Source: a virus (Duplodnaviria > Heunggongvirae > Uroviricota > Caudoviricetes). Taken from it: a DNA stretch of 50,979 nucleotides. Numbering within the stretch: position 1 is the stretch's first letter; each line of letters starts with the position of its first letter. The stretch lies in the IMG/VR virus record IMGVR_UViG_2526164596_000013. One strand, given 5' to 3'. The notes beneath the pieces were generated by a model. That model saw only the letters and a program-made list of their open reading frames with translations. It did no database searches and was not told where the DNA came from. Of the stretch, positions 581 through 30,892 are shown piece after piece. The translations under genes were made by a program, and so were the position numbers.

Positions 581-620
581 AAAGCCATCGATATTTCTAT
601 CGATGGCTTTTTCTTTTTAT
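581..620 (+). terminator. rho-independent terminator after acetyltransferase gene
   Basis: inverted repeat aaagccatcgata/tatcgatggcttt with 4-nt loop followed by ttctttttat. Confidence 0.5.
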
Positions 621-1194
621 TGTGGGGCGACTGGCCACTCAATATCCGCTGCTACTGTTGTATCAACACGGTTCAGCAACACCCGATACTTTTTCCAGGC
701 TTCCAGCAATGAGGTTTCTTCCTCCGTTGCGATTTCCAGATCTACAGCATCCTGAAGTGGCGCAATATGCTCACTGGCTACCTGCATCAGGCTGTTTTTG
801 TTTCTTCCGCCTCCCGGATCCGGAACAGTTTTTCTGCTTCTGCATCTTTCACCCAGGCTGTGCCGTTCCACTTCTGAAACTCCCCTTCCGGGGATAACCA
901 AGTGGCATTTTCCGGTAACGGACCGAGTTCAGAAATAAATAACGCGTCGCCGGAAGCCACGTCATAAACCGTTTTACCCCGATGATCTTCAACGAGATGC
1001 CACGATGCCTCATCACTGTTGAAAACAGCCACGAAGCCTGCCGGAATATCTGGCGGTGCAATATCGGTACTGTTTGCTGGCAGACCTGTATGAGGCGGAA
1101 TATATGCGTCACCTTCACCAATAAATTCATTAGTTCCGGCCAGCAGATTATAAATTTTTATGGTCCGTGGTTGTTCACTCATTCTGAATGCCAT
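617..1194 (-). pseudogene. tfa: tail fibre assembly protein Tfa, split into two frames by a 1-nt shortfall in a homopolymer (T5 at 795-799 on plus strand)
   Basis: ORF 787-1194 encodes the Tfa N-terminal part ([24 protein letters not shown]...) and ORF 617-901 in another frame encodes the C-terminal part (...[15 protein letters not shown]...[14 protein letters not shown]); join requires one extra A in the acaaaaac run. Confidence 0.7.
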
Positions 1195-10795: not shown

Positions 10796-11124
10796 CAGTT
10801 CACCACCTGCTTAAACTCCGCGCTGAACTCAACGCGCAACATCCCGACCCGCGCAGACCACCCGGCACAGGTCACCTTTATCTGCCGGTATGCATAGGGT
10901 GGCTTCCACAAAAATGCCTTCCAGCCACCGTGCTCTGCCAGGAACGCTTCCAGATGCCGGGCCTCCTCCCGGGTCACGGAAAGCGTCACCCTGTATGTTT
11001 TCAGGTCAGCATTCAGCCCTGCCGCCATACGCTGTGAGTACCCGTCACCAAAACGCACTTCACGCACCGATGGCTGCGAGTTCACCTCCATATCCGGCTT
11101 CACTTTCCAGCGAAAGGTTTTCAT
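10795..11124 (-). CDS. M: minor tail protein M
   Basis: 109-aa ORF, same length and position as lambda M. Confidence 0.75.
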   Translation of the reverse strand: MKTFRWKVKPDMEVNSQPSVREVRFGDGYSQRMAAGLNADLKTYRVTLSVTREEARHLEAFLAEHGGWKAFLWKPPYAYRQIKVTCAGWSARVGMLRVEFSAEFKQVVN

Positions 11125-13693
11125 CCACCGCTCCCTGATAACATACCGCCATCACGCAACTGCAGCCGGAGTTCATCCTGTGCCCCCTTGCGGGCCATCT
11201 CATACACCGCTTTCATCAGCTGCGGCCCTGCCCGCCCGTTGGGGCCGTCGTTCTGAATCACCACGTGATTGTTCTGATTAAAATTAATGCCTTCCGCCCG
11301 CCGCATCTGCGCCGGACTTCCGGCACCGCCGACATAACCACCTTCCGCATAGCCCCGCATCAGGCGGTACAGATTGCCGACACCAATCCGGCTGGTCGCC
11401 TCCTTCGTGAAGACAAACTCCCCGCGATGAACAATCCCCGCAGGTTCATATTTACCCCCGTCCCCGTAAATCCCCCGGTCGCGAAATGGAAGTTCGCCGC
11501 CGCAGCCTGAATGGCTGTACCGCCTGACGCGGATGCGCCGCCACCAACAGCCCCGCCAATGGCGCTGCCGATACTCCCGACAATCCCCACCATTGCCTGC
11601 TTAAGCAGAATTTCTGTCATCATGGACAGCACGGAACGGGTGAAGCTACGCCAGTTCTGTTCACTGCCGGTCAGCATCGCCGCCATATTCTGTGCAATAC
11701 CATCAAAGGTCTGCGTGGCCGCGTTTTTAACCTGCGAAAAACTGTCCGTCGCACTTTCCGCCCACTCGCCCCAGCCGGACTTCATCCCGGACATCCAGCT
11801 TCCACGAAGCTGCTCCTCCGCAGACCAGGTGTTCTTCAGTGCCGATGTGGCCTTCGCCAGCGCAGCCGGATTATCACCGTACACCTCACGAAGGCGCTGC
11901 TCTTCCGACTCCCGCTGCGCCTGACGGTCGGTGAGGCCGCGGGCTTTTGCTCTGATTGCCGCCTGCTTCGCGCTCTGCTGCTGTTCAAACCGCGCCGCCT
12001 GCTGTGCCAGCTCATTCAGCCGTTTCTGGTGTTCAATCTTGTCGCCCAGCTCAGCCAGCTGGCGTTTGTACTCCAGCGTTTCTTTCTCATGGGCCAGCAG
12101 GGATTTTTCCTGCTCAGATAACTGCCGTTTCGTGGCGGCCTCTTTCAGGACCACATACTGATTTTCCGCTTCCCATAAATCCCGGCGCTGCTGGCTGATT
12201 TTCTCATTCACACCGCTGTGTTTTTCCAGCGTCCTGAGCTCGGTTTCAAGCGCCAGCATGGCTGCATGCGCCCGGTCTTCCTGGCGCTCACCGGCAGACA
12301 CCTTCACACCTGACGGCTTTTTCAGCGTCGATTCATAATCCTTTTTTGCCGACGCCATCAGCGTGTTGTAATCCGCCTGCAGGATTTTTCCGTCTTTCAG
12401 GGCCTTATTCAGCTCTTCCTGCCGGGCGGTATATTTATCCAGCGGCGTCTGCAGGCGCTCATACGCCTTCTGCGCCTCTCCGGTATACTTCAGCTGTGAC
12501 GCCTCACGCTCAGCCCGGTCCCTTGCCGCCAGTTCACCGGCTTTTTCCATATCCGACTGCAGCGTGGCCGCTGCCAGACCCAGACGGGCATTTTCCCGGT
12601 CATCCCATGCCCCCTGAAGGTTCGCACGAAAAGAGGAGGTCTTTCCCCGGCGCTGGCTCCGGCTCTGGTACCACTGCCATTTTTTATCCGCCTCATCAAA
12701 TGCCTTCTGCGCACTGGCGAGCATATCCGCTGAGGATTCAGGACGACCGATATCCAGAATGGCATCCCACATCGATTTGAATGCCTTCCCTGTTTTATCC
12801 GCCCAGGTCTCCAGTGTTCCCATGTTTTCTTTCAGGCGACGGGTCTGCTCATCAAAGCCTTTCGTGGCGATATCGTTCGCCGCCTGCAATGCCCCGGCCT
12901 CGTCTCCGGAACGCTGCAGCTGTGCAACATACGCAATCTGCTCTGCCGTCACGTTACGGAACTGGCGCGCCATCGCCATTAGTCCCGACGTCGGGTCAGT
13001 GGTCAGCTTCCCGAAGGCTTCAGCGACTTTATCCACCTCCACACCGGATGCAGAGGAGAAACGCGCCACACTCTGGTTGATGGCATCAAACTGTTCACCA
13101 CCACGCACACCGGCATTCACCAGGGCTGCCAGTGACTCTCTCGCCTGGTTAAACGTCAGCCCTGCTGCCTGCCCGGCTCTTGAGAGAGTCAGCATACGAT
13201 CGGCAGTCAGTCCGGACTGATTACCGGAAAGAACCAGGGTTTTATTAAACGCTGAAAGCGTGGAATCTCCCTGGTACCAGGCGTACACCAGCGCACCTGT
13301 CGCCACCGCCAGCGAGGTGACCCCGACCATCGGCAGGGTGATCGCACCGGCGAGCCCCCTGAACATGGGGATCATCCCGCCGAAGGAGTCCTTCACCTGA
13401 CCGCCCTGTTGCAGCAGGATCAGCCAGGGATTCTGACCACCGGCAAGCTGCGTGGCGATATCCGTAAACTGTGCGGGCAGGGTTCGCATGGCCGCTTTAT
13501 ACTGCCCGACGGAAATCCCGGCTTTTTGTGCAGCCAGCGCCTGGCGGCTCAGGCCCTGTTCAACAGCACTGGCGGTTTTTCTGGCGTCGGTATCCAGACC
13601 TGAAAAATGACGCCTTACCCGGCTCATCTGCTCATCGAAACGGACAGCATCCAGACTCAGGTCAATAACAAGATCACCAACCGGCTGGGACAT
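11121..13693 (-). pseudogene. H: tail tape-measure protein H, split by a 1-nt shortfall in a homopolymer (C5 at 11455-11459 on plus strand)
   Basis: ORF 11360-13693 matches lambda H from MSQPVGDLVIDLSLDA... to ...FHFATGGFTGTG then goes out of frame; ORF 11121-11360 encodes the expected H C-terminus (MRGYAEGGYVGG...QNNHVVIQNDG...); one extra G in the acggggg run restores GKYEPAGIVHRGEFVFTKEATSRIGVGNLYRLMRGYA. Confidence 0.75.
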
Positions 13694-14545
13694 ATCTCAC
13701 ACCTCCCGGAATCCCCGCTGAAGCCATCATTAATGCGGCATCATCCACCATGACATCCGCCACATCCGCAGACGATAAAATATCGCGCCCTCCGTCCCCA
13801 CCGAACCGGACGCCTCCGGCAAGTCCTGCCGCTTTCTGCATCAGCATTTTGTCCTCATCCGGCCTCTCCACCTGCTCTTCCTCATGCCGGGGGACAAGCA
13901 GACTGAAATCAGAGGGATGCATATCCGGATCGCAAAAAAACAGGCTGAGTACAGCGTACGTCAGCCCGGAAAAATGCATATCCAGCTGGGTATCCTGAAA
14001 ATAATGCGTGCGGTAAAAACGGTGCCAGTCGGCATATTCGGTGGATGTCATCCCGGCAAGCATGGCGCGCCAGTCGGGTCTCCCCATCTCACGCGCCAGT
14101 CTGAGGGCAAAGTTCAGCTCGCCGTCGAAGACTTTCCCGCAGAAAAATCATCATCAGTCAGCGTGTTATTTTTCGCCACTTCAGTAATATCAGTATCCGG
14201 ACGAACAGCTTCGATCATCCCGGACAGGCACAACACCACGTCTTCCGCCCGGGCAATGGCATCGGCAGGCCAGGTGGTGAGCACTTCCTGCTCTATCTTC
14301 ATCACGGCCTCATTCATTGACGGTGACTGCGTTTTCTGTGGATGGTTATGCCACAGGGACATCGCCACCAGAAACGCGCCGGTTCTGACGAGATCTTCCA
14401 CGCTTACCTGCAGGTTGCCGCAGGATTCTGCCTGTTCTGCACGCCGTTTCAGGAGGGCAAGATGCTCGATACGCTGCAGCGCAGACAATTCGGAAAGCGT
14501 GACAGACACACCGTTATATTCAAATTGTTCTGTTTTCAGAAACAT
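13674..14545 (-). CDS. GT: tail assembly chaperone GT fusion made by programmed -1 ribosomal frameshift
   Basis: slippery heptamer G GGA AAG (rc of 14132-14138) near end of G; the -1 frame continues open to 13674 (T part), as in lambda G/GT. Confidence 0.65.
14114..14545 (-). CDS. G: tail assembly chaperone G
   Basis: 143-aa ORF upstream of H; ends ...DDDFSAGKSSTAS with slippery GGGAAAG near the 3' end. Confidence 0.75.
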   Translation of the reverse strand: MFLKTEQFEYNGVSVTLSELSALQRIEHLALLKRRAEQAESCGNLQVSVEDLVRTGAFLVAMSLWHNHPQKTQSPSMNEAVMKIEQEVLTTWPADAIARAEDVVLCLSGMIEAVRPDTDITEVAKNNTLTDDDFSAGKSSTAS

Positions 14546-14558
14546 GTATTACCTCCGT

Positions 14559-15311
14559 TTACCCTGCAGCGCCCGCTTCAGTAACGGTGACTTCAGCCAC
14601 TGCGGCGAACTGACCATTTCCGCTCACCACAGGGATCTGCACCTTACCTGTCGCCACGCCGTTTACCGTAATTGTCATATCTTTCACACTAATGGTGGCT
14701 TTCGACGGATCGGCGGAAACCGCTCTGAACGTCTTGTCGGTTGCACTTTCCGGCTCAAAAGAAACCGTCAGGGTGGTTGTTTTCCCTTTTGCCACCGTAC
14801 CGGATGTCGGCGTCACCTTAATCGCACTGACCGGCGTAATTTTGCTGCGTTCTTCCGCTACAGAAGGTTTACCCACGTTAGTGACTTTCACCGTGCGGGT
14901 GATCACTTCTTTCGCCGTCACGGCCTTACCGATACTGCTGACCCAGCCACGAAACACATCCACCGTGCCATTCGGAAAACGGATTTTATAGGCCCGGACA
15001 TCGCCGCTTTCAAACCAGCCTATAAGCCCTTTCTGGCCTTCCTCTCCCGGTTTCCAGGCCAGCGTAAAACTGGTATCACCTGCAGATTTCTGCCCCTGCC
15101 CGGTCGCGGTCCAGTCTGCGTCTTCATCATCCAGGTAGTTATCATCGTAGGATTCTGCCGTCATCTCGCCCGGCGTCAGATCCTTCACCTTAGCCAGTCG
15201 CTGCCAGTCAGCGTCTGACAACGGGTTTGCATAAGCATCACCCTTGCCGTTGTAAACCCACAGAGTGGTACCGGCACCTTTTACTGGCTCCAGGGGATTT
15301 GGTGTTGCCAT
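14559..15311 (-). CDS. V: major tail protein V (with C-terminal Ig-like region)
   Basis: 250-aa ORF in lambda V position; N-terminal [20 protein letters not shown]. Confidence 0.8.
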
Positions 15312-15318
15312 ATCGTCC

Positions 15319-15714
15319 TCACATCTCGTATGTAATGGAATAAGTCAGATCCGCAGAGCTCCATAACGCCATATCGTCATCACGACGATACTCATAGCCC
15401 TGCGTAACCATCGTGGTAATCAGTCCTGCCAGTGCCGGGATCGCAGTCATCGCCGGATAAATCCGGCTTTCCATCCACTGATCAAGCTCTGAATCCGGTA
15501 CCTGTGCCGGTAAAAACACCTCAATATGCAGTGTGGCCCGCCAGGTATCTGCATCCAGCTCTTCACCGGTATACTCTGCATCCGTCAGATAAACCGCGAT
15601 CGCAGGAAAATCCTCTTCGTCAAAAACAACGGGGCGACCATCAAACAGCGTCGCCCCGTGTTCATGCTGCTCGAGTGCATCCAGCACTGCGGCACGAATG
15701 TCAGTGTGTTTCAT
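15319..15714 (-). CDS. U: tail terminator protein U
   Basis: 131-aa ORF, lambda U length and position. Confidence 0.75.
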
Positions 15715-16286
15715 CGTTTTATCGCAATCCTCAGTTGTTGTTTCAGCGCGTATGCCAGTTCTTTGGGCAGGCGTTCACGACGGATACGGTCAACGTTTTC
15801 ATCAAACGCCTGTTTCAGTGGGGCTGCCATCGGGATTTTCACCACCTGAATGGGAAGGCGATTACGCTTTTTCCTGCCCTTGTCGTCATTGCCCTCCTCA
15901 TATCTGGCCTGGGGAAGACGTTGCATAACATGCCAGCGCCCATTATTTAATCGCTGGATAAATGCCCGCTGATAACGATGCTGACCGGCTTTGAGTATGC
16001 TGTCCGGACGACGCCCCAGCATTCTGATCCCCAGCTTAATCACAGGGAGATCACCGCGGTTAACGATAATTCTGGCATTCGGATTTCTGACCGTCGCCCG
16101 TTTCAGTCTGGACCGTTCCTTAACCAGTTTCCGTCTCACCCTGGTTTCCCGGGCAACCTGTGACGAAGACTGATTAATCGCCGTTGTGGCCACGCGGTTA
16201 ATCGTCATTGCTGAAGCCGCCGGAATGGCGTTTTTACGAACCCGGCTCAGATTGTCAATCGCCTGATCAAGCCCTTTTATCGCCAT
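15711..16286 (-). CDS. Z: tail completion protein Z
   Basis: 191-aa ORF, lambda Z length and position; 4-nt overlap with U. Confidence 0.75.
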   Translation of the reverse strand: MAIKGLDQAIDNLSRVRKNAIPAASAMTINRVATTAINQSSSQVARETRVRRKLVKERSRLKRATVRNPNARIIVNRGDLPVIKLGIRMLGRRPDSILKAGQHRYQRAFIQRLNNGRWHVMQRLPQARYEEGNDDKGRKKRNRLPIQVVKIPMAAPLKQAFDENVDRIRRERLPKELAYALKQQLRIAIKR

Positions 16287-16300
16287 AATTCACCCTGCGT

Positions 16301-16654
16301 TTATCGTCGCCGGTTAACTGCGGGTGGTTGCCCACGGTTGAGCCAGAGATAACAGCTGCCCCCGTCATCCGGAGAAACACGATCCACCCAGAATGTCTCA
16401 CCATTAATGGTCAGCGTGTCACCACGCCGCACGGCACGAACCGTATCCGTCCGCACAAATAATGACGGGCTGCTTCCTTCAATACGGACCCCGCCACCGG
16501 CAAACCCCAGCGACTCCGGATCGTCAAAAACCCCCTGAACTTCGCTGCCACACTGTGCCCCCGAGGTGAACTGCGCACAGAGCCCCATCACTTCAACGAT
16601 CGTACTGTCCACCCCGGCGAGGGCAGCATCAAAGGCATTCTGAAAATCACGCAT
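16301..16654 (-). CDS. FII: head-tail connector protein FII
   Basis: 117-aa ORF, lambda FII length and position. Confidence 0.75.
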   Translation of the reverse strand: MRDFQNAFDAALAGVDSTIVEVMGLCAQFTSGAQCGSEVQGVFDDPESLGFAGGGVRIEGSSPSLFVRTDTVRAVRRGDTLTINGETFWVDRVSPDDGGSCYLWLNRGQPPAVNRRR

Positions 16655-17078
16655 ATTCAGCCGTTCCGTGCTGTATCATGGCCGTTGCCAGTGATGATGG
16701 CACCAGAACACGCATACCCCGTAACGCCAGCTCAACGGGACGACCTGTCTCCGGGCAATACCCCATTACTTGCAGGCACTTCCGTACCCGGACGGCTTTA
16801 ACATCATCCGGAGCATCCGTGTTGTTCAACTGCTCACCATCGTCTGTGTGATTTTGATCAGCCCCGCTCTCATCAGAGTGCATAATGCCCTCCGGGGAAA
16901 CAGCAAGCTCCTCTTCCCACTCAGACACACGTTGCGCAATATCCGCAGCACTCCCCGACATATCCGCCTCGCGCCCCAGCAGGCCAGCCAGTTGACGAAG
17001 ACGATTCAGATTTTCTTCTTTTGTTGCCATCTCAGCCTCCTGTGAAAAAAGACACGGGGGCATTTCGCCCCCGCTCAC
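16647..17078 (-). CDS. FI: DNA packaging protein FI
   Basis: 143-aa acidic ORF between E and FII. Confidence 0.7.
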   Translation of the reverse strand: MSGGEMPPCLFSQEAEMATKEENLNRLRQLAGLLGREADMSGSAADIAQRVSEWEEELAVSPEGIMHSDESGADQNHTDDGEQLNNTDAPDDVKAVRVRKCLQVMGYCPETGRPVELALRGMRVLVPSSLATAMIQHGTAEYA

Positions 17079-17081
17079 GGA

Positions 17082-18110
17082 TTATTTCACCTGCACCACC
17101 ACAAACTCATCCGGATCCGGCAGCACCATCAGCGGTGCGGACTGCGTCATGGTGAATTCACGGGCCGGATCGCCCACAGTCAGCCAGTGTTTCGGATAAC
17201 GGGAAGAGGCCACCACACCTTCGGACAACGCCTGCGCATCCTGAATGGCACCATAGCAACGAATGCCCTCTGCTGCCGTATTCCCCAGGACCAGTATGCC
17301 CACCGGCAGATAACGTTTTTCGGTACCGTCGTCTGCCACATAAGACGTTTTCGCCACCACAATGGCCAGATCACCGTAATACCCTTTGAAAGACACCACC
17401 GCGCCCAGGTCTTTCACTGCCGTTTCGAGTTGTGAATTTGAGCCGCGACGGGTATCCAGTTTTTCGCGGAACAGCTTAAAGCCATTCAGCAGACGCCAGA
17501 CCGTACCGTCCATAATGGCAATATTCACAAGACCGCTGGCCTGATCGCAGTAAAGGTCAATATCATGCGTCGGATCAAACGTATCACGGTCCTGCTCAGA
17601 CCATTTTTTACCGTCGGCCTGCTCAATGTTATTTCCTTCAGAGCGTCCGAAATCCACCTCGACCGTGTCAAACTGTTCCCCTTCCATGGTGTATTTGCCA
17701 TACAGCACGGCATTCACCGCCTGCATTTCTTCCACCTGGACAATAGCGTGCTCTTCCTGTTTGAGGTTATCGGTAATGATACGCAGACGACGGTAGGCCG
17801 GGTCGTTCAGCTGAGCCGGATCTTCACCAGGAAGGCGCTCAACCGCCTGCTGGTAATTAAATTCGTGTTTGGGCTTGACGTAGCCCGGACGTAACACGCG
17901 GGTTTCACCACCGCGATGGCGAAGCACTTTTCCTTCAACGATCGGGGAGACATAGGCCGCCACCGGCGTTTTTCCGGTAATTTTGTCCAGCATCACCTCT
18001 TCGGTGTGGAAATTCACCGTACGGCGGAAAAACAGCTCCAGAAACAGCGCACGGAATTTAACTTTTTGTTCGGTATAACCGAGTAACTGGCGGGTCGTAA
18101 ACAATCCCAT
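17082..18110 (-). CDS. E: major capsid protein E
   Basis: 342-aa ORF; long colinear identity to lambda E as recalled (...RGGETRVLRPGYVKPKHE..., ...KLDTRRGSNS.LETAVKDLG..., ...GDPAREFTM.QSAPLM...). Confidence 0.9.
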   Translation of the reverse strand: MGLFTTRQLLGYTEQKVKFRALFLELFFRRTVNFHTEEVMLDKITGKTPVAAYVSPIVEGKVLRHRGGETRVLRPGYVKPKHEFNYQQAVERLPGEDPAQLNDPAYRRLRIITDNLKQEEHAIVQVEEMQAVNAVLYGKYTMEGEQFDTVEVDFGRSEGNNIEQADGKKWSEQDRDTFDPTHDIDLYCDQASGLVNIAIMDGTVWRLLNGFKLFREKLDTRRGSNSQLETAVKDLGAVVSFKGYYGDLAIVVAKTSYVADDGTEKRYLPVGILVLGNTAAEGIRCYGAIQDAQALSEGVVASSRYPKHWLTVGDPAREFTMTQSAPLMVLPDPDEFVVVQVK

Positions 18111-18167
18111 AAATCAGTTCCTTTCATTAAGAAATCAGTCAGGCCAACGCGGTGGCCTGATAACGTG

Positions 18168-18515
18168 TTACGGCAGCGCCGCGTGACTCAGGGCACTGCC
18201 GGTAAAGGCGTTGGCCTTTTTGTGTTCATCCACACTTTCAGGCCAGCGGATTGCCTCCGTCGCAAAGGTCCCCGACTTGTAATACGTCAGCACCGCCTCT
18301 GTGCCTTCAAGCGGCAGTACCAGTATGCCAACCGCACTACCGGCTTTCTGTCCGTCCCAGACCACCAGTTTCCCGGTGGCTTCATCCAGCATCAGGGGCG
18401 TCAGAGCCGGTGTTGCAGAAGAAATCCCGCTGCTGCCTGTGGCGGTATGAGCCGGATCATTACCGGCAAAAATACGTACTTCCGCACGCTGTTCAGTGAT
18501 GGTTTTCGTCACCAT
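18168..18515 (-). CDS. D: head decoration protein D
   Basis: 115-aa ORF; DPAHTATG...TPLMLD...KLV.WDG...AVGIL...YKSGTF match lambda D as recalled. Confidence 0.85.
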   Translation of the reverse strand: MVTKTITEQRAEVRIFAGNDPAHTATGSSGISSATPALTPLMLDEATGKLVVWDGQKAGSAVGILVLPLEGTEAVLTYYKSGTFATEAIRWPESVDEHKKANAFTGSALSHAALP

Positions 18516-18551
18516 TTTGTTAAAACCTCATATTGATGGTCAGCACTGACT

Positions 18552-20057
18552 TCATGGCATGGCCATGAGCATTTTCACGTCCGCATCACCGTCTTCTGAC
18601 GCCTGTGACACGCCCCCCTGGACCGCTGCCGGTGAATGGTTCGCCATGAAATGTTCAAACATGGCGGCTGTGGATGCAGAGACCGGTTCGGCCTTACCTG
18701 ATCCCGCAGCCAGCACAGCCCGGGCGTTCTCCACGGTCATTCCCGGGCAGGCCGCCAGTTTTTCAGCCTGCGCTTCTGCCCCTTTTGCCTCATCCAGGGC
18801 CATGATCTGATCACGAAGTGAGGGCCCGGCATCCGCCAGTGGTGCAGCCGCCAGGATCGGGCGGGCTTTTTCCACCGTCATCTCCGGCATCGCCGCCAGC
18901 GTTGCTGCCAGTTGTTCACGACCGTTCGCTTCTTCACACGCCATAATGCGATCGGCTTCACTCTGCGCGGATGCCACCGGCTGCTGCGGTGCCGCCGCGG
19001 CCAGAATCGCCCGGGCCTGTTCAACGCTCATGCCCTGTTGCCCTGCCAGCATCGTGGCAAGCTGTTCACGTCCTTTCGCTTCCTGGCATGTCAGGATCCC
19101 CATCACTCGCTGGTTCTCCTGCACGGCGGCTTCCGTTGCAGTTAATTGCGGCATAGTGCCTCCTCTGACATTACTGTTCAGCGCCGTGGCCATCACACTG
19201 ATGGCATCCGACGCATTGATTAATTCATCCGCCAGCCCGGCCTCAATGCCGGACTGACCTTCAAAAACGGCGGCCTCTGTTCCCGTGACCGCATCCACAG
19301 ACAACCCGGTATACATCGCCACTTTTTCGGCAAACATCCGGTGCGCCGCATCAATCCGCTGCTGCATATCCTGGCGAACCTCTGCCGGCAACGCTTCAAA
19401 CTGATTGCCATCCACCTTGTGCGCCCCGGCATAAATCAGCGTGATATCCACACCGGCCTGCGCCAGATGACCGGCATAGCTGACATGGCTCATCATCACG
19501 CCAATGGAGCCGATACGGGATGTCTGGGTAACCAGCCGTCGGGAGCAGGCCGACGCCAGCAGCATGGCTGCAGAACAGGCCGTGTCATTGCACAGTGCCC
19601 AGACCGGCTTCTGCTGACGGAGGCGGTAAATCATGTCAGCGCAGTCAAACGCGCCGGCGGCCTGCCCGCCCGGACTGTCAATGTCCAGCAGTATGCCCCG
19701 CACCTGGCTATCTGCCATTGCCTGCTGAAGACAGGCGACAATGCCGTCATAGCCAGTCATTCCGGAAAATGGCCGCATCCCCCCCAGCCGGTGCACCAGC
19801 GTGCCGGTCACCGGCAGTACCGCAATACCGTTCACCACCCGGTAAACACGGGCCGGTCGTTTACCTCCGGCCATGTACTCGTCCGTTTCAGCCAGCATTC
19901 CGGGAGCATCAAGCTGTACCTGCTGTTGCGGTACCGAAAGACTTGCTGCCCCCATCTCGCGCCCCAGCGCGCAAAAGAAAACCCGCGCATAGGCGGACTC
20001 CAGAAGCAGCGGTTCATTGAATGCTGCTGCAATAATGTGTGAAAGATTACGTCTCAC
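18552..20057 (-). CDS. C: head maturation protease C (S49/ClpP-like) with C-terminal Nu3-like scaffold repeats
   Basis: 501-aa ORF in lambda C/Nu3 position; C-terminal third has three tandem ~36-aa repeats (...EAKGREQLA.MLAGQQGMSVEQARAILAAA...). Confidence 0.8.
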   Translation of the reverse strand: MRRNLSHIIAAAFNEPLLLESAYARVFFCALGREMGAASLSVPQQQVQLDAPGMLAETDEYMAGGKRPARVYRVVNGIAVLPVTGTLVHRLGGMRPFSGMTGYDGIVACLQQAMADSQVRGILLDIDSPGGQAAGAFDCADMIYRLRQQKPVWALCNDTACSAAMLLASACSRRLVTQTSRIGSIGVMMSHVSYAGHLAQAGVDITLIYAGAHKVDGNQFEALPAEVRQDMQQRIDAAHRMFAEKVAMYTGLSVDAVTGTEAAVFEGQSGIEAGLADELINASDAISVMATALNSNVRGGTMPQLTATEAAVQENQRVMGILTCQEAKGREQLATMLAGQQGMSVEQARAILAAAAPQQPVASAQSEADRIMACEEANGREQLAATLAAMPEMTVEKARPILAAAPLADAGPSLRDQIMALDEAKGAEAQAEKLAACPGMTVENARAVLAAGSGKAEPVSASTAAMFEHFMANHSPAAVQGGVSQASEDGDADVKMLMAMP

Positions 20058-21639
20058 GTGGTGTTGTCTCCTCTTCCGGCCTGCGACTCTCCGCTATCTG
20101 CTGCTGATACGCCTGCGCTATCCACACCGGACGTGAGAGTCCGGCTTTTTCCCGCTCTGCAGATTCCCTGACCTGCTGGCGGAAAATGTCCTGATAATCC
20201 TCGCCCATCAGCGCCAGCTCTTTCTCATACGTGCTCAGTCCGGCCTCAATGCGCATCACTGATTCCTGAACCTCCTTGAGCCCGTCAATGGCCATTCTTC
20301 CGGCTCCAATCCACTCAGCCCGTGACCAGGCTGATCGCGCCTGATAAAAATCAAACCGTGCCCGTGGCGGACGAATAATCCCCCGAAGAAGTGCCTCTTC
20401 CAGCCAGCAGGAAAACATCTGCGTGGCCAGCCGGGACGCAATAAATTTTCGCCGCCCCATAAAATAGCGCCACGACTCATTGGCGGATGCGCGGGCACTT
20501 GAGTAACTGACCTTCGAGTAATCACGGGACAACTGTTCGTAGGAAACGCCAAGACCGGCGGCGATATACCGCAGCAGCGCCTGTTCAAGCGCCGAAAATC
20601 CATTGTCTGAATCCTGCGCGGTCTGAAGTTTCAGATCATCACCGGGGAAAAGGTGCGGAATTTTGACACCGCCCAGCGTCACGCTATTCGTGTCATACCA
20701 GGTGGAGAACTTATCCAGAATATTAATAAGCGGATTATCCTTCTGCCCCTGCGGCGCACCGGCGATATATTCAAAGGCCTTTTCGGTATCAAGGTCACTT
20801 TCAATCGTCGCTGCATACATCGCCTTCACTATGGCCGACTGAAGCTGTGTTGCCTGCAGGGAATCCAGCATCTTCAGCCGTTCCATAACGCTGTAAAACT
20901 GATTGGCTCCACGGGTCTGCCCGTCCTCCACCGGCTCGAAAATATGCAGCATGGCCGGACGCCCGGTGGGTAGTTCACGCGGGATCCGTTCCCATCGTCC
21001 ACTCCCGGAGCGAGGAAAATCATCCTCACAGATATGGTACGCAACGGCACGGCCATATCGATCAACCTCCACACCGGCCCGCAGAAAACGGTTCCCGATA
21101 CCGTGTCCTGGCGTGTCCACCCGTTTCGGACTCACGGCTTTAAAACGCGTACGAAACAGTTGCGTACTCTCCGTATCCCAGACCGGCTGCACAAAGATTT
21201 CGCCGTTAAACGCATGAACGCCCACACCTTCACGGATAAATTCCGTAAACGTGCGTTTCCCTTCCACGTCGATCTCACCAAACATCCCTTCTGCGTATTC
21301 TGACCAGGCCGCCTCCACCTCATCGACAAAACTTTTTGCCGCGGTCTCCCGCATCCCCAGCCAGCGCCAGTTCGGACGGTAGCTGATAAGAAACATATGC
21401 CCGACAATGTGATCCTTATGCAGGGCCACCGCATTGGCCGCTATTCCGTTATTGCGCACCAGATCATCTGCACGGGCATTCCCCAGACGCAACGCGGGCA
21501 GCAGGGCCGCATCGGCACTCTGCGAGGGTGGCAACCACTCTGCCATTTGCCCGCCAAATCCTGCACCGCCACCGTTGTAGCTGAGGCTCTCCCGAAGCGG
21601 AACGCCGTTCACATCAATCAGGACAGGCGTTCGTTTCAT
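20047..21639 (-). CDS. B: portal protein B
   Basis: 530-aa ORF (lambda B about 533 aa) between W and C. Confidence 0.85.
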   Translation of the reverse strand: MKRTPVLIDVNGVPLRESLSYNGGGAGFGGQMAEWLPPSQSADAALLPALRLGNARADDLVRNNGIAANAVALHKDHIVGHMFLISYRPNWRWLGMRETAAKSFVDEVEAAWSEYAEGMFGEIDVEGKRTFTEFIREGVGVHAFNGEIFVQPVWDTESTQLFRTRFKAVSPKRVDTPGHGIGNRFLRAGVEVDRYGRAVAYHICEDDFPRSGSGRWERIPRELPTGRPAMLHIFEPVEDGQTRGANQFYSVMERLKMLDSLQATQLQSAIVKAMYAATIESDLDTEKAFEYIAGAPQGQKDNPLINILDKFSTWYDTNSVTLGGVKIPHLFPGDDLKLQTAQDSDNGFSALEQALLRYIAAGLGVSYEQLSRDYSKVSYSSARASANESWRYFMGRRKFIASRLATQMFSCWLEEALLRGIIRPPRARFDFYQARSAWSRAEWIGAGRMAIDGLKEVQESVMRIEAGLSTYEKELALMGEDYQDIFRQQVRESAEREKAGLSRPVWIAQAYQQQIAESRRPEEETTPRET

Positions 21640-21842
21640 AACCTCACTCCCAGCGGACGACGGCGACGGCGGGTTGTCCCCAGTACCGACTCCGCATCAT
21701 TGATCGCCCGGTTAAGCTCATCCAGAGAAGCTGCCGTATATTCAATTCTGCGACCATCTTTCTGGACAGACACCACCCGTTTACCGGTTAATAAATCAAG
21801 GCGCGCCTGACGCAGCGCCTGCAGTTCAGCGACTGTAACCAT
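21636..21842 (-). CDS. W: head-tail joining protein W
   Basis: 68-aa ORF, lambda W length and position. Confidence 0.75.
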   Translation of the reverse strand: MVTVAELQALRQARLDLLTGKRVVSVQKDGRRIEYTAASLDELNRAINDAESVLGTTRRRRRPLGVRL

Positions 21843-23753
21843 TCACTCCTCCGGACAGCTTCGCTGCCAGTTCTTTAAGGGTTGGCCGGGTCGTCTCTTC
21901 TTCCCGGGATTTTGCCAGTACAGCCAGATCAAGCTGCCAGCGTTGCACGGACACACGTAATGCCGCGTAGGCATACACCAGGCAGTCCAGCGCTTCGTTA
22001 CGCCGCTTTTTGTTATCCCACAGCAGACGCATCTTTCCTTTTTCCCACTTCTCCACAAGCTCTTCCGCGACCAGTTGCTGCGCCTCTGTCTGCGAAAAAA
22101 TCTCCGGATCATCAGGAAAACGGATGGCATACGACGTGGCTTCATCCGCAGGCGTGGGCTCGGCTTTCATACGGGCATAGAGAATTTCTTTTGCGGTGTC
22201 CGTCCCCACTTCACACAGATAAACGCCCCGCTGATTGCGGGTTTTCGGCATGGTGATCACCGGCTTGCCATAGACAGACGCGCCTTTTACCGGCAGCACA
22301 CGGAAAACACCGTGTTTTTTGACCTCTGGTAGACGATTTCACCATCGATCCCCCCGGTGTCCCAGCAGACACGGGAAATGGTCATTTCGGTGCCATCCGC
22401 ATGGCGGTATTTTTTGTTGATCGCCGCATCCACACGTAACAGCGTCTCTTCCTCATCGGGACGTCCCATAATGATGATTTTATCCACCAGAAAGGCTTCC
22501 TCTCCCGGAGCCCATCCCCAGACATACATCTCAAAACGGTTTCGCTGCGAGTCAATGCCCGCCGTCAGATAAACCACCCGGGCAGGCACCGCCGCCGTGT
22601 AATGAACAACCTTATCCATCAGTACCTGGTGATCGAGTTTTTCGCCCACGGCCTCTTCCCAGGTCTCGCCCAGCGTGGTGTTCACAAAGGTTTTCAGGCC
22701 GTTGGGATCTTTCAGTGCATCCAGCCAGTCATAGACAATCTGTACCCAGGTGGTGAACGGACTGTACGCCGTCCAGATATGGAATGTGATGGAGCGCGGC
22801 GGCGGAATTTCATTATCCGCGGCGCTGAAAAACGTCAGACCGTCGCGGGTCCACATCCCCGTGTTTTCGCAGATCCACCGCCCGTTGCTCTGGTCAAGCT
22901 CAGACTGATGGATCACGCAGCCATGATGTTCACAGAGGTAGAAAACGCTTTCGGGGCTGTCCTTCTCCCATTTAAGGCCAAAAGGCGTGGACTCATCGCC
23001 AAATTTCAGATACTGCGCCTCCCCACAGTGCGGGCAGGGCACATAAAAACGCATGAAATGCGCCGACTCGTTGGCCGCTTTTTCGATCTGGCAGGAGCCT
23101 TTTATTTTAGGCGTCGAGCCGCGAATGGATTTTGGCCATACCGAGCCCTCAATACGCTTATCCCCCAGCAGGGTTGGCGAGCCCTCTTTTTCGACATCCG
23201 GCTCGAACGAGGAAAGTTCGTCATAGCAGACCACGTCCACGGATTTTTCACGGTAGTTTTTTGCTGCCGCACCACCCAGGCACCAGAAGCCCACCCCCGA
23301 TGAAAAGCGTTTCAGCGTAAGAGTATTGTCACGATGTTTACGACCCAGCCACGGGGAAAGATCTTTCAGGCATGGCACGTCCCGAATCGTCGCCTCCACG
23401 TGAGACTTCATAAAATCTTCAGCGGCAGAATCCGTGGGCTGAAAAAGCAGACTGTTTCGGGATTTATGCTCAATAAAATACCCGGCGACTCCCAGCAACA
23501 TCTTTGTATAGCCAACACGGGCAGATTTAATCAGATTAACAGTGCGGATCTGATCATTCCCCATACTGTTCATGATGGCGATCTGGAACGGCAGCGTTTT
23601 CCATTCGCCGTCACCGTATGAGGATTCTTTCGGCAGATAATAATACTGGTCAGCCCATTCAACTGCCGTCATCGGTACAACCCTGACCAGAGGCTGCAGC
23701 GCAACCGAAACGGCGGCCACCATATTATTCAGTTGTTGCTCTGATATATTCAT
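21826..23753 (-). pseudogene. A: terminase large subunit A, split by a 1-nt shortfall in a homopolymer (T6 at 22315-22320 on plus strand)
   Basis: ORF 22287-23810 matches lambda gpA from MNISEQQ (ATG at 23753) to ...IVYQRSK then goes out of frame; ORF 21826-22299 continues the gpA C-terminus (VKGASVYGKPV...WDNKKRRNEALDCLVYAYAALR); tcaaaaaacacggtg needs one more A to read SKKHGVFRVLPVKG. Confidence 0.8.
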
Positions 23754-24231
23754 CCAGCAAATCCGGTAATTTATCCCCTGCCCGCGCACACTGATTTGCG
23801 CCCTTTGCAATAAGGGTTTTCAGATGGTCAATATGACGTGGCGTTAAATCCGGGAACTGTCGCTGCATGGATAACGGAATGGAATCAAGCGTACTGGACA
23901 ATGCCATCGCCAGTTTGCTGAGGGCGAAAACGCAGAAGTCTGAATCGATGAGCTTACCTTCGGTTACCTGATTTTTAAGTTTTTGAGCTACAGCCTGTTC
24001 TTCTGTCAGTTCAGCTCTGGCCCGAAGCAGCCTTTCCTCCAGTTCTCCCCCGTCATCAGGTGTTCTCTGATTGTGTTGTCGCCGCTCGCGATCTATCTCC
24101 AGTACAGTTTTAACGTCATATAAAACTTCCCTCCCCCGACGTTCAACAGGAGGAACGCCCCATTTATCAAATGCCTGAACAGAGATACCGATGGAGGAGG
24201 CCATATCACTTTTATTCAATAAAAAGGCCAT
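23725..24231 (-). CDS. Nu1: terminase small subunit Nu1
   Basis: product ...MASSIGISVQAFDKWGVPPVERRGREVLYD...FCVFALSKLAMALSSTLDSIPLSMQRQFPDLTPRHIDHLK resembles lambda Nu1; start chosen at ATG 24231 (alternative 24249); 3' end overlaps A start. Confidence 0.75.
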   Translation of the reverse strand: MAFLLNKSDMASSIGISVQAFDKWGVPPVERRGREVLYDVKTVLEIDRERRQHNQRTPDDGGELEERLLRARAELTEEQAVAQKLKNQVTEGKLIDSDFCVFALSKLAMALSSTLDSIPLSMQRQFPDLTPRHIDHLKTLIAKGANQCARAGDKLPDLLDEYIRATTE

Positions 24232-24447
24232 CTCCTCTCCATAAGTCATCGATAAAAAGCGAAACAACAACCATGTGTTTTTGCAAAACCATTTGATATC
24301 ATTGACATTTTTCGCATTGACGACATCAAAACACATCGTAAGGTTGTTGTATTTATTTTATTTTCACCTTACTTATCAATTAGATATACCAAACAATTAA
24401 ACAACAACCACCCCCTCAAAAAATCTCATAAATAGTGAAAACGCGCG

Positions 24448-24459
24448 AGGTCGCCGCCC
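24448..24459 (-). other. cos: cosN cohesive-end site (12-nt GGGCGGCGACCT identical to lambda)
   Basis: rc of 24441-24470 reads GGGGCGGCGACCTCGCGCGTTTTCAC, matching the lambda left-end sequence GGGCGGCGACCTCGCGGGTTTTCGC; lies about 200 bp upstream of Nu1 as cosN/cosB does in lambda. Confidence 0.85.
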
Positions 24460-24665
24460 CGTAACCGGTCGGATCGCCGGAAAGGACCCACGAAATGATA
24501 ATGATTATCATCTATATAAGGTTTATCACAACATGTGTGTACGCCATCAAACCACGAGAAATAATCAATTATGACGCAGGTATCGTATTAATTGATCTGC
24601 GTCAAATTAACGTAAAAGCAACTTCAGATAATACAAATCAGCAACACTGAATATGGGGAAACATT

Positions 24666-24851
24666 ATGTCATCAAAGAACAGAACCCGCAGAACAACAAC
24701 CCGCAACATCCGATTTCCAAACCAGATGATTGAACAAATTAACATCGCTCTTGATCTGAAAGGTTCAGGAAACTTTTCAGCGTGGGTTATTGAAGCCTGC
24801 AGAAGAAGGCTGTCAACAGAGAGTTCGGGTATGAATTACATAATTAAGTAA
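24666..24851 (+). CDS. small ribbon-helix-helix-like protein (hypothetical), moron between Rz and cos
   Basis: 61-aa ORF opposite to the late genes; IRFPNQMIEQINIALDLKGSGNFSAWVIEACRRRL resembles an RHH (Arc/MetJ/CopG-type) fold; weak SD ggggaa. Confidence 0.4.
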   Translation: MSSKNRTRRTTTRNIRFPNQMIEQINIALDLKGSGNFSAWVIEACRRRLSTESSGMNYIIK

Positions 24852-24983
24852 CATGGTGTTCACAGAACACGCAGTTACCGGACACATCAGTTTTCCATTC
24901 GCTCCCCGGCAGTACAGGCTTCCCCTCTGACGGGATAGCCTGAAAAAATAACACAGAAAATTATTTGTTATAATTAATATAAC

Positions 24984-25124
24984 TTACTCAAAAAAAAGCG
25001 ACGAGAAAATCAGCATCAACGAACAATAAGCGCCAATACGTGATAACAAATGGCAGCCATATTTATCTGCAGTATAAGCAATGGACAGGATAACCACACC
25101 AGAAACCGTCAGCATAAAATCCAT
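24984..25124 (-). CDS. hypothetical 46-aa hydrophobic peptide
   Basis: ATG at 25124 preceded by GGGGAAG SD at 7-nt spacing; product MDFMLTVSGVVILSIAYTADKYGCHLLSRIGAYCSLMLIFSSLFFE; below ORF-track size cutoff; no homologue recognised. Confidence 0.3.
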   Translation of the reverse strand: MDFMLTVSGVVILSIAYTADKYGCHLLSRIGAYCSLMLIFSSLFFE

Positions 25125-25474
25125 TTGAACTTCCCCGGACAAAATCGACTCATCTAAAGATTTACAGCTCTTTTTATTATCAATATGTTAAAAGTAAAAT
25201 AAACAGATGTTCAATAACACGAATACAAAAACGTGCTGAAATTCAATGAATCCATTTCTGTGTCATCAATTAATAGTGATAAACATCCGGCTTCTTCCAC
25301 CATCGCACCGGACAGGCGACTATGAGGGGACAACGCCGCGCTCCGTTAACGCGGTAAACCCCGGTGTGTATCGTTTTTGATTATCCCCGCACACTCGCGC
25401 AGAGGAGTCTCCCTGTCGGGCTGCGGTCTCTGTTAATGAGGGAATACAGCGACGATACGGCGCATCAACAAAAC

Positions 25475-25948
25475 TTATTTCAGGCACTGAGTGCGGATAT
25501 AGTCCTGTGCCCCTTCCAGTTGCTTGTGCATCGTCATCAGCCGCTCTCTGAGGGTGAAATAATCCCGTGTAACGGTGTCTGCCAGTTGGGGGCCGGTTGC
25601 ATTATCCACGCCGGAGGTGGTGGGGGCTTCACGCACGGAGCCTGGACAGGTGGCGTTGATCCGCAGGCGCTTACGACCAGCGGCAACATCAGCGCGCAGA
25701 GTTTCATTTTCAGCTCTCGCATCGGATAATTCCCTCGAGTATTTTGCATCGAGCGCAGCAACATCGCGCTGGCGCACCTGCATATCAGTAATGGTTGCGT
25801 TCGCCAGCTTCAGTTCACTGGCTTTGTTATCGCGCTGCGCTTTGTAGGTAATCGCGTTATCACGGTAATGGTCTGTTGCCATCCACAGCGCACCACAGGC
25901 CACCAGCAGAATAACGATAAACGCGGAAAGCATTCGGTTTATGTTCAC
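25475..25948 (-). CDS. Rz: i-spanin Rz
   Basis: 157-aa ORF; [44 protein letters not shown]...[18 protein letters not shown] matches lambda Rz as recalled; N-terminal TM helix. Confidence 0.9.
25537..25722 (-). CDS. Rz1: o-spanin Rz1 (lipoprotein) embedded in Rz in +1 frame
   Basis: [22 protein letters not shown] lipobox followed by [14 protein letters not shown] proline-rich segment as in lambda Rz1; start at 25722 chosen by alignment. Confidence 0.8.
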
Positions 25949-26076
25949 CCCAGCAACCCCGACGAAGACAACATCATCCAGGCCATGGAAAGAAAAAGAG
26001 CAACCAGCATTAGTGAAAATGAAATGCCGACAATTACACAGAGGATCTTCGCCAGCGTTATGAGTTTGTCTGACAT
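25945..26076 (-). CDS. hypothetical 43-aa membrane peptide between endolysin and Rz
   Basis: ATG at 26076 preceded by AGGGAGG SD; product [43 protein letters not shown]; stop overlaps Rz start. Confidence 0.4.
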
Positions 26077-26090
26077 GCTTAATCCTCCCT

Positions 26091-26273
26091 TCACGATTTC
26101 AACGCAATGACCAGTTTTGCCAGCCCATACAGCATCGGGGACACAGCAACACCGACCGCTACCCACTTAATGGCAAAAGCCAGTGCTCTGCTGATGTCAT
26201 CAGTTACAGGCGCTTTCAGTTCAAGGCCATTTTTCATAGTCAACCTCAACAGAATTCGTTTATACTTCGCCAT
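26091..26273 (-). CDS. hypothetical 60-aa protein with C-terminal hydrophobic helix
   Basis: ATG at 26273 with AGGGAG-like SD; product [60 protein letters not shown]; start uncertain (ORF extends to 26306). Confidence 0.3.
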
Positions 26274-26304
26274 GTTCTCCCTTGCCTTACTCAAGGTCAG
26301 AAAC

Positions 26305-26345
26305 ACAAAACCCCGCTTGGTGCCAACAAACGGGGTTTTTACTTT
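26305..26345. terminator. hairpin with flanking T-runs on both strands between endolysin and downstream small ORFs
   Basis: aaaaccccg-(15 nt)-cggggttttt; T-rich on plus after the stem and on minus (ttttgtgttt) after the stem. Confidence 0.4.
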
Positions 26346-26429
26346 TATTCACTTACGTTTCGCCAGTTCGCAGGATTTCGTGTTATCCGCCCGCGTGGCC
26401 ATACCTTATTTTTCAGCAAAATATTCTGC

Positions 26430-26963
26430 TTATCTGTCGATTCCCCAGCACGCCAGCGCGCTCTCCTGGTCACGACGGGATACCTGACCATAACAGTTAT
26501 TTGAGCGGATACGGCAGTCTCTGCCACCGTCCTTAATCCACCAGCGAATCGCCTCACACGCTCCCCTGCGGTCACCAGCATTCAGCCGCTTATAAAACGT
26601 CGACGGGAAACACTTACCGGGGCCAATGTTATAGGGACAGAATGACGCTATACCCGCTTTCTGTGGTTCGGTCAGTGGAACTTTAATATTGCGCTCCACC
26701 CATGCCAGCGCCTTATCCCGTTCAATGGCATTAACCTGGTCGCATTTTTCCTTCGACAGTTTCATGCCCGGAATAACAGGTTTACCATCCACCATTGTGG
26801 CACCGCGGCAGATGGTCCAGATACCCGCACCATCACGGTATGCCGTTGTGTGGTTACCTTCTTTTTCATCCAGAAACTGGTCGAGAATATCAGGCGCAGG
26901 CGCACCGATGGCAATCAACGCCAGAACGGCAGCCGACAGGCCATATTTGATTTTGGTGTTCAT
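26430..26963 (-). CDS. R: SAR endolysin (phage-lysozyme family, phage 21 R-like)
   Basis: 177-aa ORF; N-terminal hydrophobic signal-anchor LSAAVLALIAIGAPAP followed by lysozyme core (EGNHTTAYRDGAGIWTICRGAT...); downstream of a pinholin. Confidence 0.8.
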   Translation of the reverse strand: MNTKIKYGLSAAVLALIAIGAPAPDILDQFLDEKEGNHTTAYRDGAGIWTICRGATMVDGKPVIPGMKLSKEKCDQVNAIERDKALAWVERNIKVPLTEPQKAGIASFCPYNIGPGKCFPSTFYKRLNAGDRRGACEAIRWWIKDGGRDCRIRSNNCYGQVSRRDQESALACWGIDR

Positions 26964-27406: not shown

Positions 27407-27415
27407 CGAGCCACC

Positions 27416-28222: not shown

Positions 28223-28226
28223 CGCT

Positions 28227-30445: not shown

Positions 30446-30892
30446 GAATCCTCCCGGCCGGGATAATATTGTGAGTAAAATGAGGAGCGGGCTGAAGTCC
30501 GGAAGTTACAGGACAATGGCAGAAGAGAGACAATAGCCCGCAATACGAAAAAGGCCGCGCTATTGCGCAGAGTGATTACTGTCGGATATTATTCGCCAGC
30601 TGAAATATTACTTCACGTTTTGTTGTTTATTCCTTGCCGCCCGCGTCTCCCTGCGCGGGATTTTTTTGTCCATAAGAAAGCCCCTCCGGAGAGGGCTGGA
30701 GAGTGGCGCTATGTGCCATTGCATGGTGCCGGGTGCCTCCCGGTGAATTCAGTACCAGCACCTGAATCCGCGATTATCCCATATACCTACTCGCTGATTG
30801 CCCCTCCGCACAGGGGGATTCACCATGCCAGTTTCTTTTAACAAACTCCCCGCAAAACAGACAACTGTCAACCGTCTGAATTGTGAGACATT

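What the first reader, a model, noticed from the sequence alone, without database searches (positions are those of the whole stretch)
11121..13693. Tape-measure gene H interrupted at a G5/C5 run
After ...FHFATGGFTGTG the reading frame leaves the lambda H sequence; the expected continuation GKYEPAGIVHRGEFVFTKEATSRIGVGNLYRLMRGYA is read in the adjacent frame and leads into the 79-aa ORF 11121-11360. The shift maps to ccccc at 11455-11459.
Basis: seen in the sequence. Interest (0 to 1): 0.5.

Follow-up and report, generated by a model that had tools for sequence, protein, structure and literature searches.

The report
Tape-measure gene broken by homopolymer miscall
The lambda-type tail tape-measure gene in this prophage is split by one missing G in a run of six, and comparison with independent assemblies of the same prophage shows this is most likely a sequencing error in a 2012 draft genome, not biology.

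Summary
On the minus strand, gene H reads in frame to ...FHFATGGFTGTG. It then leaves frame at a G5 run (C5 at 11455-11459 on the plus strand). The native continuation GKYEPAG... lies in the adjacent frame and runs into the 79-aa ORF 11121-11360.

The window is contig AIHP01000019.1 of the E. coli DEC15B draft genome. Over 43.8 kb it differs from the prophage in the complete genome of O111:H21 strain 15A by one SNP and four one-base deletions. All four are in homopolymers and lie in H, terminase A, a tail-fibre assembly gene and one intergenic site. Four other independent drafts are identical over 4-14 kb apart from run lengths and at most one SNP, and all carry G6 and an intact 857-aa H.

The 777-aa frameshifted product occurs on one contig only; the intact product occurs on at least 24. 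In complete E. coli genomes with identical flanks, G6:G5:G7 is 311:4:0. The G5 cases I examined sit in error-laden or long-read assemblies.

Best reading is a homopolymer under-call (about 0.8). A genuine inactivating mutation is the main rival (about 0.15). GenBank phage PhiR5_1 shows the same G5, which keeps a small chance that the split is tolerated. Interest is low.

The parts
11455..11459 (-). G5 run on the coding strand (C5 on the plus strand). This is the frameshift site; relatives carry G6.
   Evidence: Searches give the sequence. Searches show G6 in strain 15A and in four independent drafts that are otherwise identical. Searches give G6:G5:G7 = 311:4:0 in complete E. coli genomes.
11457..13693 (-). 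Native part of H, residues 1-745. It contains the TMP_2 domain (aa 54-256) and the Tape_meas_lam_C domain (aa 631-705). It corresponds to lambda gpH* plus the first part of gpHC.
11360..11456 (-). Out-of-frame tail of the 777-aa ORF: 32 non-native residues plus the TGA stop. It replaces the invariant segment GKYEPAGIVHRGEFVFTKEATSRIGVGNLYRL.
11121..11456 (-). True continuation of H in the adjacent frame, residues 746-857 of the intact protein. Its last 79 codons form ORF 11121-11360. It includes the C-terminal segment that binds gpI in the lambda tail tip.
   Evidence: PDB 9e7m chain matches aa 823-853. PMC12617516 reports gpH residues 818-849 bound to the gpI trimer.
22315..22320 (-). T6 run on the plus strand where strain 15A has T7. 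It splits terminase gene A into ORFs 22287-23810 and 21826-22299.
795..799 (-). T5 run on the plus strand where strain 15A and other drafts have T6. It splits the tail-fibre assembly gene into pieces of 135 aa and 56 aa (the 56-aa figure comes from the sibling DEC15 drafts). The 135-aa product is found only in the DEC15A, DEC15B and DEC15C drafts.
30693..30695 (.). G3 where strain 15A has G4. The position is intergenic or pseudogene sequence.

Best explanation
The interruption is most likely a homopolymer-length under-call in the draft assembly the window comes from (E. coli DEC15B, GCA_000250515.2, contig AIHP01000019.1). In the real DNA the run is most likely G6. H would then be an ordinary intact 857-aa lambda-family tape-measure gene lying between T and M. 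Shown: where the window comes from, the exact site, and the fact that the window differs from independent assemblies of the same prophage almost only in homopolymer lengths, always shorter. Inferred: that the cause is sequencing or consensus error and not mutation. No reads were available.
For: 1. Provenance. The locus fetched from AIHP01000019.1 is 100% identical to window 1360-23693. The 777-aa product is EHY05177.1 [E. coli DEC15B].
2. Comparison with the complete genome of O111:H21 strain 15A. Over 43,857 aligned bases there are 1 SNP and 4 one-base deletions in the window. All four are in homopolymers: T6 to T5, G6 to G5, T7 to T6, G4 to G3. Only 7% of bases lie in runs of 4 or more, so four random deletions all falling there has P about 2e-5. 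With an assumed genuine indel share of 10%, 4 or more indels among 5 differences has P about 5e-4.
3. Four other independent drafts (L102, L103, L089, L092) are identical to the window over 4-14 kb apart from G6 versus G5 in H, A6 versus A5 in the tail-fibre assembly gene where covered, and one SNP in L092.
4. The exact frameshifted 777-aa product is on 1 contig in the whole collection. The intact 857-aa product identical to the repaired one is on at least 24 contigs, including the sibling draft DEC15C.
5. The site is a proven hotspot for assembly error. In NZ_CP025920.1 the same tail region occurs twice: one copy is intact with G6, and the copy at the record end has G5 plus about 20 other one-base deletions, nearly all in mononucleotide runs of two or more. 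O145 RM9873-C1 (G5) and its sister RM9872 (G6) show 0 SNPs and 2 G-run deletions in 40 kb. Of the 10 longest contigs carrying a separate 79-aa ORF, 8 have G5, and 6 of those 8 are megabase-scale contigs with H, L, K, I and J shredded into many ORFs.
6. Direction. Only contractions are seen: G7 in 0, G5 in 4 and G6 in 311 records. IMG/VR gives G5 on 1 contig and G6 on 65.
7. The 32 residues that the shift would destroy are identical between this protein and lambda gpH, although the two proteins are only 78% identical overall. The segment is therefore under strong constraint.
Against: No reads were seen, so error is inferred and not demonstrated. Homopolymer contraction is also the commonest genuine frameshift mutation, and prophage genes are under no selection while repressed. 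The T5 break in the tail-fibre assembly gene is shared by three separately assembled DEC15 drafts. That needs either a systematic platform bias or a genuine shared mutation. Frameshifted gene A with the same 488 + 157 aa split occurs in short-read (Logan) and metagenome contigs of another prophage lineage, so genuine breaks of this kind exist. The sequencing platform of the DEC drafts could not be checked because Hazen et al. 2012 is not held. GenBank phage PhiR5_1 independently shows G5.
Confidence: 0.8

Rival explanations
1. A genuine 1-nt deletion has made H a pseudogene. By replication slippage, the DEC15B prophage has truly lost one G from the G6 run, as well as one T in gene A. It can then no longer make tails or package DNA and is a decaying, defective prophage.
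For: Slippage in mononucleotide runs is the main natural source of frameshifts (established knowledge). Three breaks in essential late genes would fit a prophage drifting without selection. Genuine frameshifted A alleles at the same T run exist in short-read and metagenome assemblies of other prophages. DEC15B is a separate isolate from strain 15A: it carries an IS2 copy that 15A lacks and lacks 15A's IS903B. Some private mutations are therefore expected.
Against: The ratio of 4 homopolymer deletions to 1 substitution in 43.8 kb is far from what genuine divergence usually gives. All the changes are contractions. The allele is private to one 2012 draft, while at least 24 other contigs of the same haplotype are intact. 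The sibling draft DEC15C has intact H.
Confidence: 0.15
2. The G5 allele is genuine and still functional. One route is a -1 slip of peptidyl-tRNA-Gly on the G run, which would regenerate exactly the wild-type sequence TGTGGKYEP. The other is expression of H as two polypeptides: a gpH*-like N-terminal piece, and a gpHC-like 79-aa piece re-initiated at the overlapping TGATG.
For: Reading the sequence, slipping back one base on ACG GGG G and then reading GGT AAA restores the native protein. The break lies downstream of the Gly-rich region where lambda gpH is cut into gpH* and gpHC, and the 79-aa ORF contains the gpI-binding C-terminus (PMC12617516). Phage PhiR5_1, deposited with host E. coli C, carries the same G5 and all its other structural genes are intact. 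PhiR12_2_star has a different 1-nt deletion about 100 nt further on.
Against: There is no X XXY YYZ heptamer. The downstream RNA is not unusually structured (z = -1.1). The run is not conserved: lambda reads ACGGGAACCGGCGGCAAA. G6, which is in frame, is the state in about 98-99% of copies. The shift destroys 32 invariant residues. Before cleavage, uncut gpH presumably has to tether the ruler to the tip, so a split protein should fail (inference). The 3' end of H has six times the window's density of G/C runs of 5 or more. That alone explains why error-prone records break there.
Confidence: 0.03
3. The G run is a phase-variable (contingency) tract that switches tail production on and off.
For: G5 recurs on several unrelated haplotypes: the window, PhiR5_1, IMG/VR contig L012 and four RefSeq genomes.
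Against: A run of 6 is short for a contingency tract. No G7 was found among 315 copies with exact flanks. The run is absent from lambda and other alleles. The recurrent G5 cases that could be examined sit in demonstrably error-laden assemblies.
Confidence: 0.02

Closest known systems
Bacteriophage lambda gpH (tail length tape-measure protein, NP_040595.1; PDB 8iyk, 8iyl, 8k35, 9e7m)
   Same: The gene sits in the same place, between T and M. It has the same Pfam domains, TMP_2 and Tape_meas_lam_C. The repaired protein is 857 aa against 853 aa and is 78% identical end to end, with residues 659-781 almost invariant.
   Different: As written in the window, the ORF is broken after residue 745. At the DNA level lambda has no G run at that place.
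Homopolymer-length consensus errors in draft and long-read bacterial assemblies
   Same: The differences from independent assemblies of the same element are confined to mononucleotide runs, all are contractions, and each creates an apparent frameshift. The same run is miscalled in other assemblies that are visibly error-laden.
   Different: The platform and coverage of the DEC15B draft could not be verified here. One of the four contractions is shared by three sibling drafts.
Lambda G/GT programmed -1 ribosomal frameshift (tail assembly chaperones)
   Same: It lies in the neighbouring genes of the same operon. A -1 shift would also be what restores H here.
   Different: G/GT uses a conserved slippery heptamer and the shift is conserved across relatives. 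Here there is no heptamer, no conservation of the run and no conserved out-of-frame arrangement.

Membership tests
Lambda-family tape-measure protein (gpH) | TMP_2 and Tape_meas_lam_C domains | tested here: met
   PF06791 at aa 54-256 (E = 2e-69) and PF09718 at aa 631-705 (E = 6e-22), found in both the window ORF and the intact allele.
Lambda-family tape-measure protein (gpH) | Full-length similarity to lambda gpH and position between T and M | tested here: met
   78% identity over 858 columns after repair. The gene order G, T, H, M, L, K, I, J is seen.
Lambda-family tape-measure protein (gpH) | One uninterrupted reading frame through the gpI-binding C-terminus | tested here: not met
   In the window as written the frame breaks at 11455-11459. 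The feature is met in strain 15A and in at least 24 other contigs of the same haplotype.
Sequencing or assembly homopolymer artefact | Differences from independent assemblies of the same DNA are confined to run lengths | tested here: met
   4 homopolymer deletions against 1 SNP in 43.8 kb. L089 shows 0 SNPs in 14.2 kb apart from two run lengths.
Sequencing or assembly homopolymer artefact | The variant is private to one assembly or project | tested here: met
   The 777-aa product is on 1 contig. The 135-aa tail-fibre assembly product is found only in three DEC15 drafts.
Sequencing or assembly homopolymer artefact | Raw reads disagree with, or only weakly support, the consensus at the run | not testable with these tools
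   No read data are available. The paper describing the DEC drafts is not held.
Programmed -1 ribosomal frameshift site | Slippery heptamer X XXY YYZ with a downstream stimulatory structure | tested here: not met
   The sequence is ACG GGG GTA, which is not a heptamer. The downstream 104 nt fold at z = -1.1 against shuffles.
Programmed -1 ribosomal frameshift site | The out-of-frame arrangement is conserved among relatives | tested here: not met
   In-frame G6 occurs in 311 records against G5 in 4, and in 65 contigs against 1 in IMG/VR. Lambda has no run.
Phase-variable homopolymer tract | Length polymorphism in both directions at a conserved tract | tested here: not met
   G7 was found in 0 records. 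The tract is absent in lambda and in PhiR12_2_star.

The most novel reading that the evidence does not exclude
The G5 allele is real in at least some phages, notably the plaque-forming PhiR5_1, and tails are still made. That would happen either through low-level -1 slippage of tRNA-Gly on the G run or because gpH can work when its gpHC C-terminal module is made as a separate 79-aa polypeptide. Either route would mean that the covalent link between the ruler and its tip anchor is dispensable.
Probability: 0.04. Interest if true: 0.55.

Novelty: not a real feature. Interest (0 to 1): 0.07.

Why it matters
If this is an artefact, the value is practical. The apparent pseudogenes for H, A and the tail-fibre assembly protein in the DEC15B draft should not be read as evidence that the prophage is defective. 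This G6 run in the glycine-rich 3' end of lambda-type H genes is a recurrent trap for annotation, seen in RefSeq genomes, long-read assemblies and at least one deposited phage genome.

If the break were real and tolerated, it would bear on an open point in lambda biology: whether uncut gpH is needed, and what the gpHC fragment does.

Tried and rejected
- **Source paper for the PhiR phages.** I tried to read it (Brenes and Laub 2025) to learn how PhiR5_1 was sequenced. It is not held. I only traced the citation through PMC13190303.
- **Description of the DEC drafts.** I tried to read Hazen et al. 2012 for the sequencing platform. It is not held.
- **A close relative of PhiR5_1.** I searched complete E. 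coli genomes for a relative more than 99% identical, to test its G5 against an independent assembly. The best hit was 97.4%, too distant to use.
- **G5 shared by descent.** I considered that the window and PhiR5_1 or IMG/VR contig L012 inherited G5 from a common ancestor. I rejected this because their flanks differ within 50-300 nt, while the window is identical to G6 carriers for more than 8 kb on both sides.
- **A frameshift-stimulating RNA structure.** None stands out.
- **Phase variation.** No G7 alleles were found.
- **My first guess at provenance.** From memory of accession order I took AIHP to be DEC15A. That was wrong: the protein record names DEC15B.

Full report
**What is in the sequence**

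The window carries a lambdoid prophage with its late genes on the minus strand. Gene H starts at 13693 and reads in frame as a lambda-type tape-measure protein up to ...AANFHFATGGFTGTG (residue 745). After the run ggggg at 11459-11455 (C5 at 11455-11459 on the plus strand), the frame continues as 32 unrelated residues. It stops at a TGA that overlaps the ATG of a 79-aa ORF, 11360-11121.

Translating 11456-11121 on the minus strand gives GKYEPAGIVHRGEFVFTKEATSRIGVGNLYRLMRGYAEGG... through to the natural stop. That is the C-terminus of lambda gpH.

**What the gene is**

The ORF has the TMP_2 domain (aa 54-256) and the Tape_meas_lam_C domain (aa 631-705). It lies between T and M. With one G restored, it gives an 857-aa protein that is 78% identical to lambda gpH over its full length, and residues 659-781 are almost invariant.

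In lambda, gpH is cut in its glycine-rich region (about residues 690-720) into gpH* and a C-terminal fragment, gpHC. Residues 818-849 of gpHC bind the gpI trimer in the tail tip (PMC12617516; PDB 9e7m matches aa 823-853). The break in the window falls inside gpHC. It would destroy 32 residues that are identical between lambda and this phage.

**Where the window comes from**

An exact look-up of the 777-aa product finds a single contig: AIHP01000019.1 of GCA_000250515.2. The locus fetched from it is 100% identical to window 1360-23693. NCBI names the protein EHY05177.1 [Escherichia coli DEC15B]. The window is thus part of a draft genome from the diarrheagenic E. coli (DEC) collection. From memory, that is Hazen et al. 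2012, J Bacteriol 194:3026. The reference was located, but the paper is not held, so the platform is unverified.

**Comparison with independent assemblies of the same prophage**

The complete genome of E. coli O111:H21 strain 15A (NZ_CP077477.1) carries the same prophage. Over 43,857 aligned bases there is one true SNP (window 19997) and four one-base deletions in the window:

| Site in window | Change (15A to window) | Location |
|---|---|---|
| 795-799 | T6 to T5 | tail-fibre assembly gene |
| 11455-11459 | C6 to C5 | H |
| 22315-22320 | T7 to T6 | terminase A |
| 30693-30695 | G4 to G3 | intergenic |

- In strain 15A all three genes are intact.
- Only 7% of bases lie in runs of four or more, so four random deletions all landing there has P about 2e-5.
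- If an assumed 10% of genuine differences were indels, 4 or more of 5 being indels has P about 5e-4.
- Four further independent drafts (GCA_032232535.1, GCA_040168245.1, GCA_047878345.1, GCA_029999375.1) match the window over 4-14 kb with 0-1 SNP. They otherwise differ only at the H run (G6) and, where covered, the run in the tail-fibre assembly gene (A6).
- The intact 857-aa protein identical to the repaired one is on at least 24 contigs, including the sibling draft DEC15C (EHY07996.1). The frameshifted one is on one contig.

**How the site behaves elsewhere**

Among 5426 complete E. coli genomes, exact 81-, 82- and 83-mers around the site give G5 in 4 records, G6 in 311 and G7 in 0. In IMG/VR, G5 is on 1 contig and G6 on 65.

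I examined two of the four G5 records.

- **NZ_CP025920.1** holds the same tail region twice. The internal copy is intact with G6. The copy at the end of the record has G5 together with about 20 other one-base deletions, nearly all in mononucleotide runs of two or more. There J, I, K, L, M and H are all annotated as frameshifted.
- **O145 strain RM9873-C1** (G5) and its sister RM9872 (G6) show no SNP in 40 kb and two G-run contractions.

The separate 79-aa ORF is called on 115 contigs. Of the ten longest, eight have G5, and in six of those eight H, L, K, I and J are shredded into many small ORFs. This is the signature of noisy long-read assemblies.

The last 580 nt of H encode a glycine-rich stretch and hold six times the window's average density of G/C runs of five or more. 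That explains why error-prone records break there.

**Points that cut the other way**

- The T5 break in the tail-fibre assembly gene is shared by the drafts of DEC15A, DEC15B and DEC15C, and is found nowhere else. That needs either a systematic bias of that project's platform or a real shared mutation. The complete genome of strain 15A, which I infer but could not prove is DEC15A, has T6.
- Frameshifted gene A with the same 488 + 157 aa split occurs in short-read and metagenome contigs of another prophage lineage. Real breaks at such runs do exist.
- GenBank PV340545.1 (phage PhiR5_1, host field E. coli C) has the same G5 and the same 777 + 79 aa annotation, with all other structural genes intact.
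- PV340551.1 (PhiR12_2_star) has a different one-base deletion, GGGGGTTATG to GGGGGTATG, about 100 nt downstream.
- I could not learn how those phages were sequenced, nor find a relative close enough to check them.

**Alternatives considered**

- **Programmed -1 frameshift.** It would restore the exact native protein. But there is no slippery heptamer and no notable downstream structure (z = -1.1). The run is absent from lambda, and the in-frame state is the rule.
- **Phase variation.** This is not supported, because no G7 was found.
- **G5 shared by descent with PhiR5_1 or the IMG/VR contig.** This is excluded by divergent flanks within 50-300 nt, set against more than 8 kb of identity to G6 carriers on both sides.

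**Verdict**

The interruption is real in the deposited sequence. It is most likely a homopolymer under-call in the DEC15B draft (about 0.8). A genuine inactivating deletion in that isolate is the main rival (about 0.15). A tolerated or recoded split of gpH is a remote possibility (about 0.03-0.04) that only the PhiR5_1 record keeps alive. H itself is an ordinary member of the lambda tape-measure family.

Noticed in passing
window 22315-22320 (gene A, ORFs 22287-23810 and 21826-22299, minus strand): Terminase large-subunit gene A is split by T7 to T6 relative to strain 15A. The same 157-aa C-terminal fragment, next to a 488-aa N-terminal piece, is also called in short-read (Logan) and metagenome contigs of a different prophage context. 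A real frameshifted A allele therefore circulates elsewhere.
   Followed up: partly
window 795-799 (tail-fibre assembly gene, ORFs 787-1194 and 617-901, minus strand): The gene is split by T6 to T5. The resulting 135-aa product is found only in the three drafts DEC15A, DEC15B and DEC15C, while strain 15A and 113 other contigs have the intact 192-aa protein. This is either a systematic platform error or a real mutation shared by the clone.
   Followed up: partly
window 43857-45130: An IS2-like element (InsC/InsD-type ORFs of 136 and 301 aa) is inserted in the early region. It is absent from the strain 15A prophage, and strain 15A in turn carries an IS903B copy that the window lacks. DEC15B and 15A are therefore distinct isolates or stocks.
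   Followed up: partly
L002 / L011 (PV340545.1 PhiR5_1, 38565) and L003 (PV340551.1 PhiR12_2_star, 37823-37871): Two deposited genomes of plaque-forming phages annotate H as two CDSs, each because of a one-base deletion in or next to a G run in the 3' glycine-rich part of H. PhiR5_1 has exactly the window's G5. Read support is unknown.
   Followed up: partly
L005 (NZ_CP025920.1, 5104129-5118381) versus L007 (same record, 14160-29295): This RefSeq 'complete' genome of strain 103605 ends with a second, error-laden copy of a prophage tail region. It differs from the internal copy by about 20 one-base deletions, and six genes are annotated as frameshifted. It looks like an untrimmed or low-coverage contig end.
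   Followed up: yes
window 19997: This is the only true substitution (A in the window, G in strain 15A) across 43.8 kb of shared prophage. It lies near the portal/protease gene boundary. Its effect on coding was not examined.
   Followed up: no
window 13674-14545 (minus strand): ORFs of 143 aa (14114-14545) and 137 aa (13674-14087) upstream of H correspond to the G and T tail assembly chaperone genes. These are joined in lambda by a programmed -1 frameshift. The slippery site was not inspected here.
   Followed up: no
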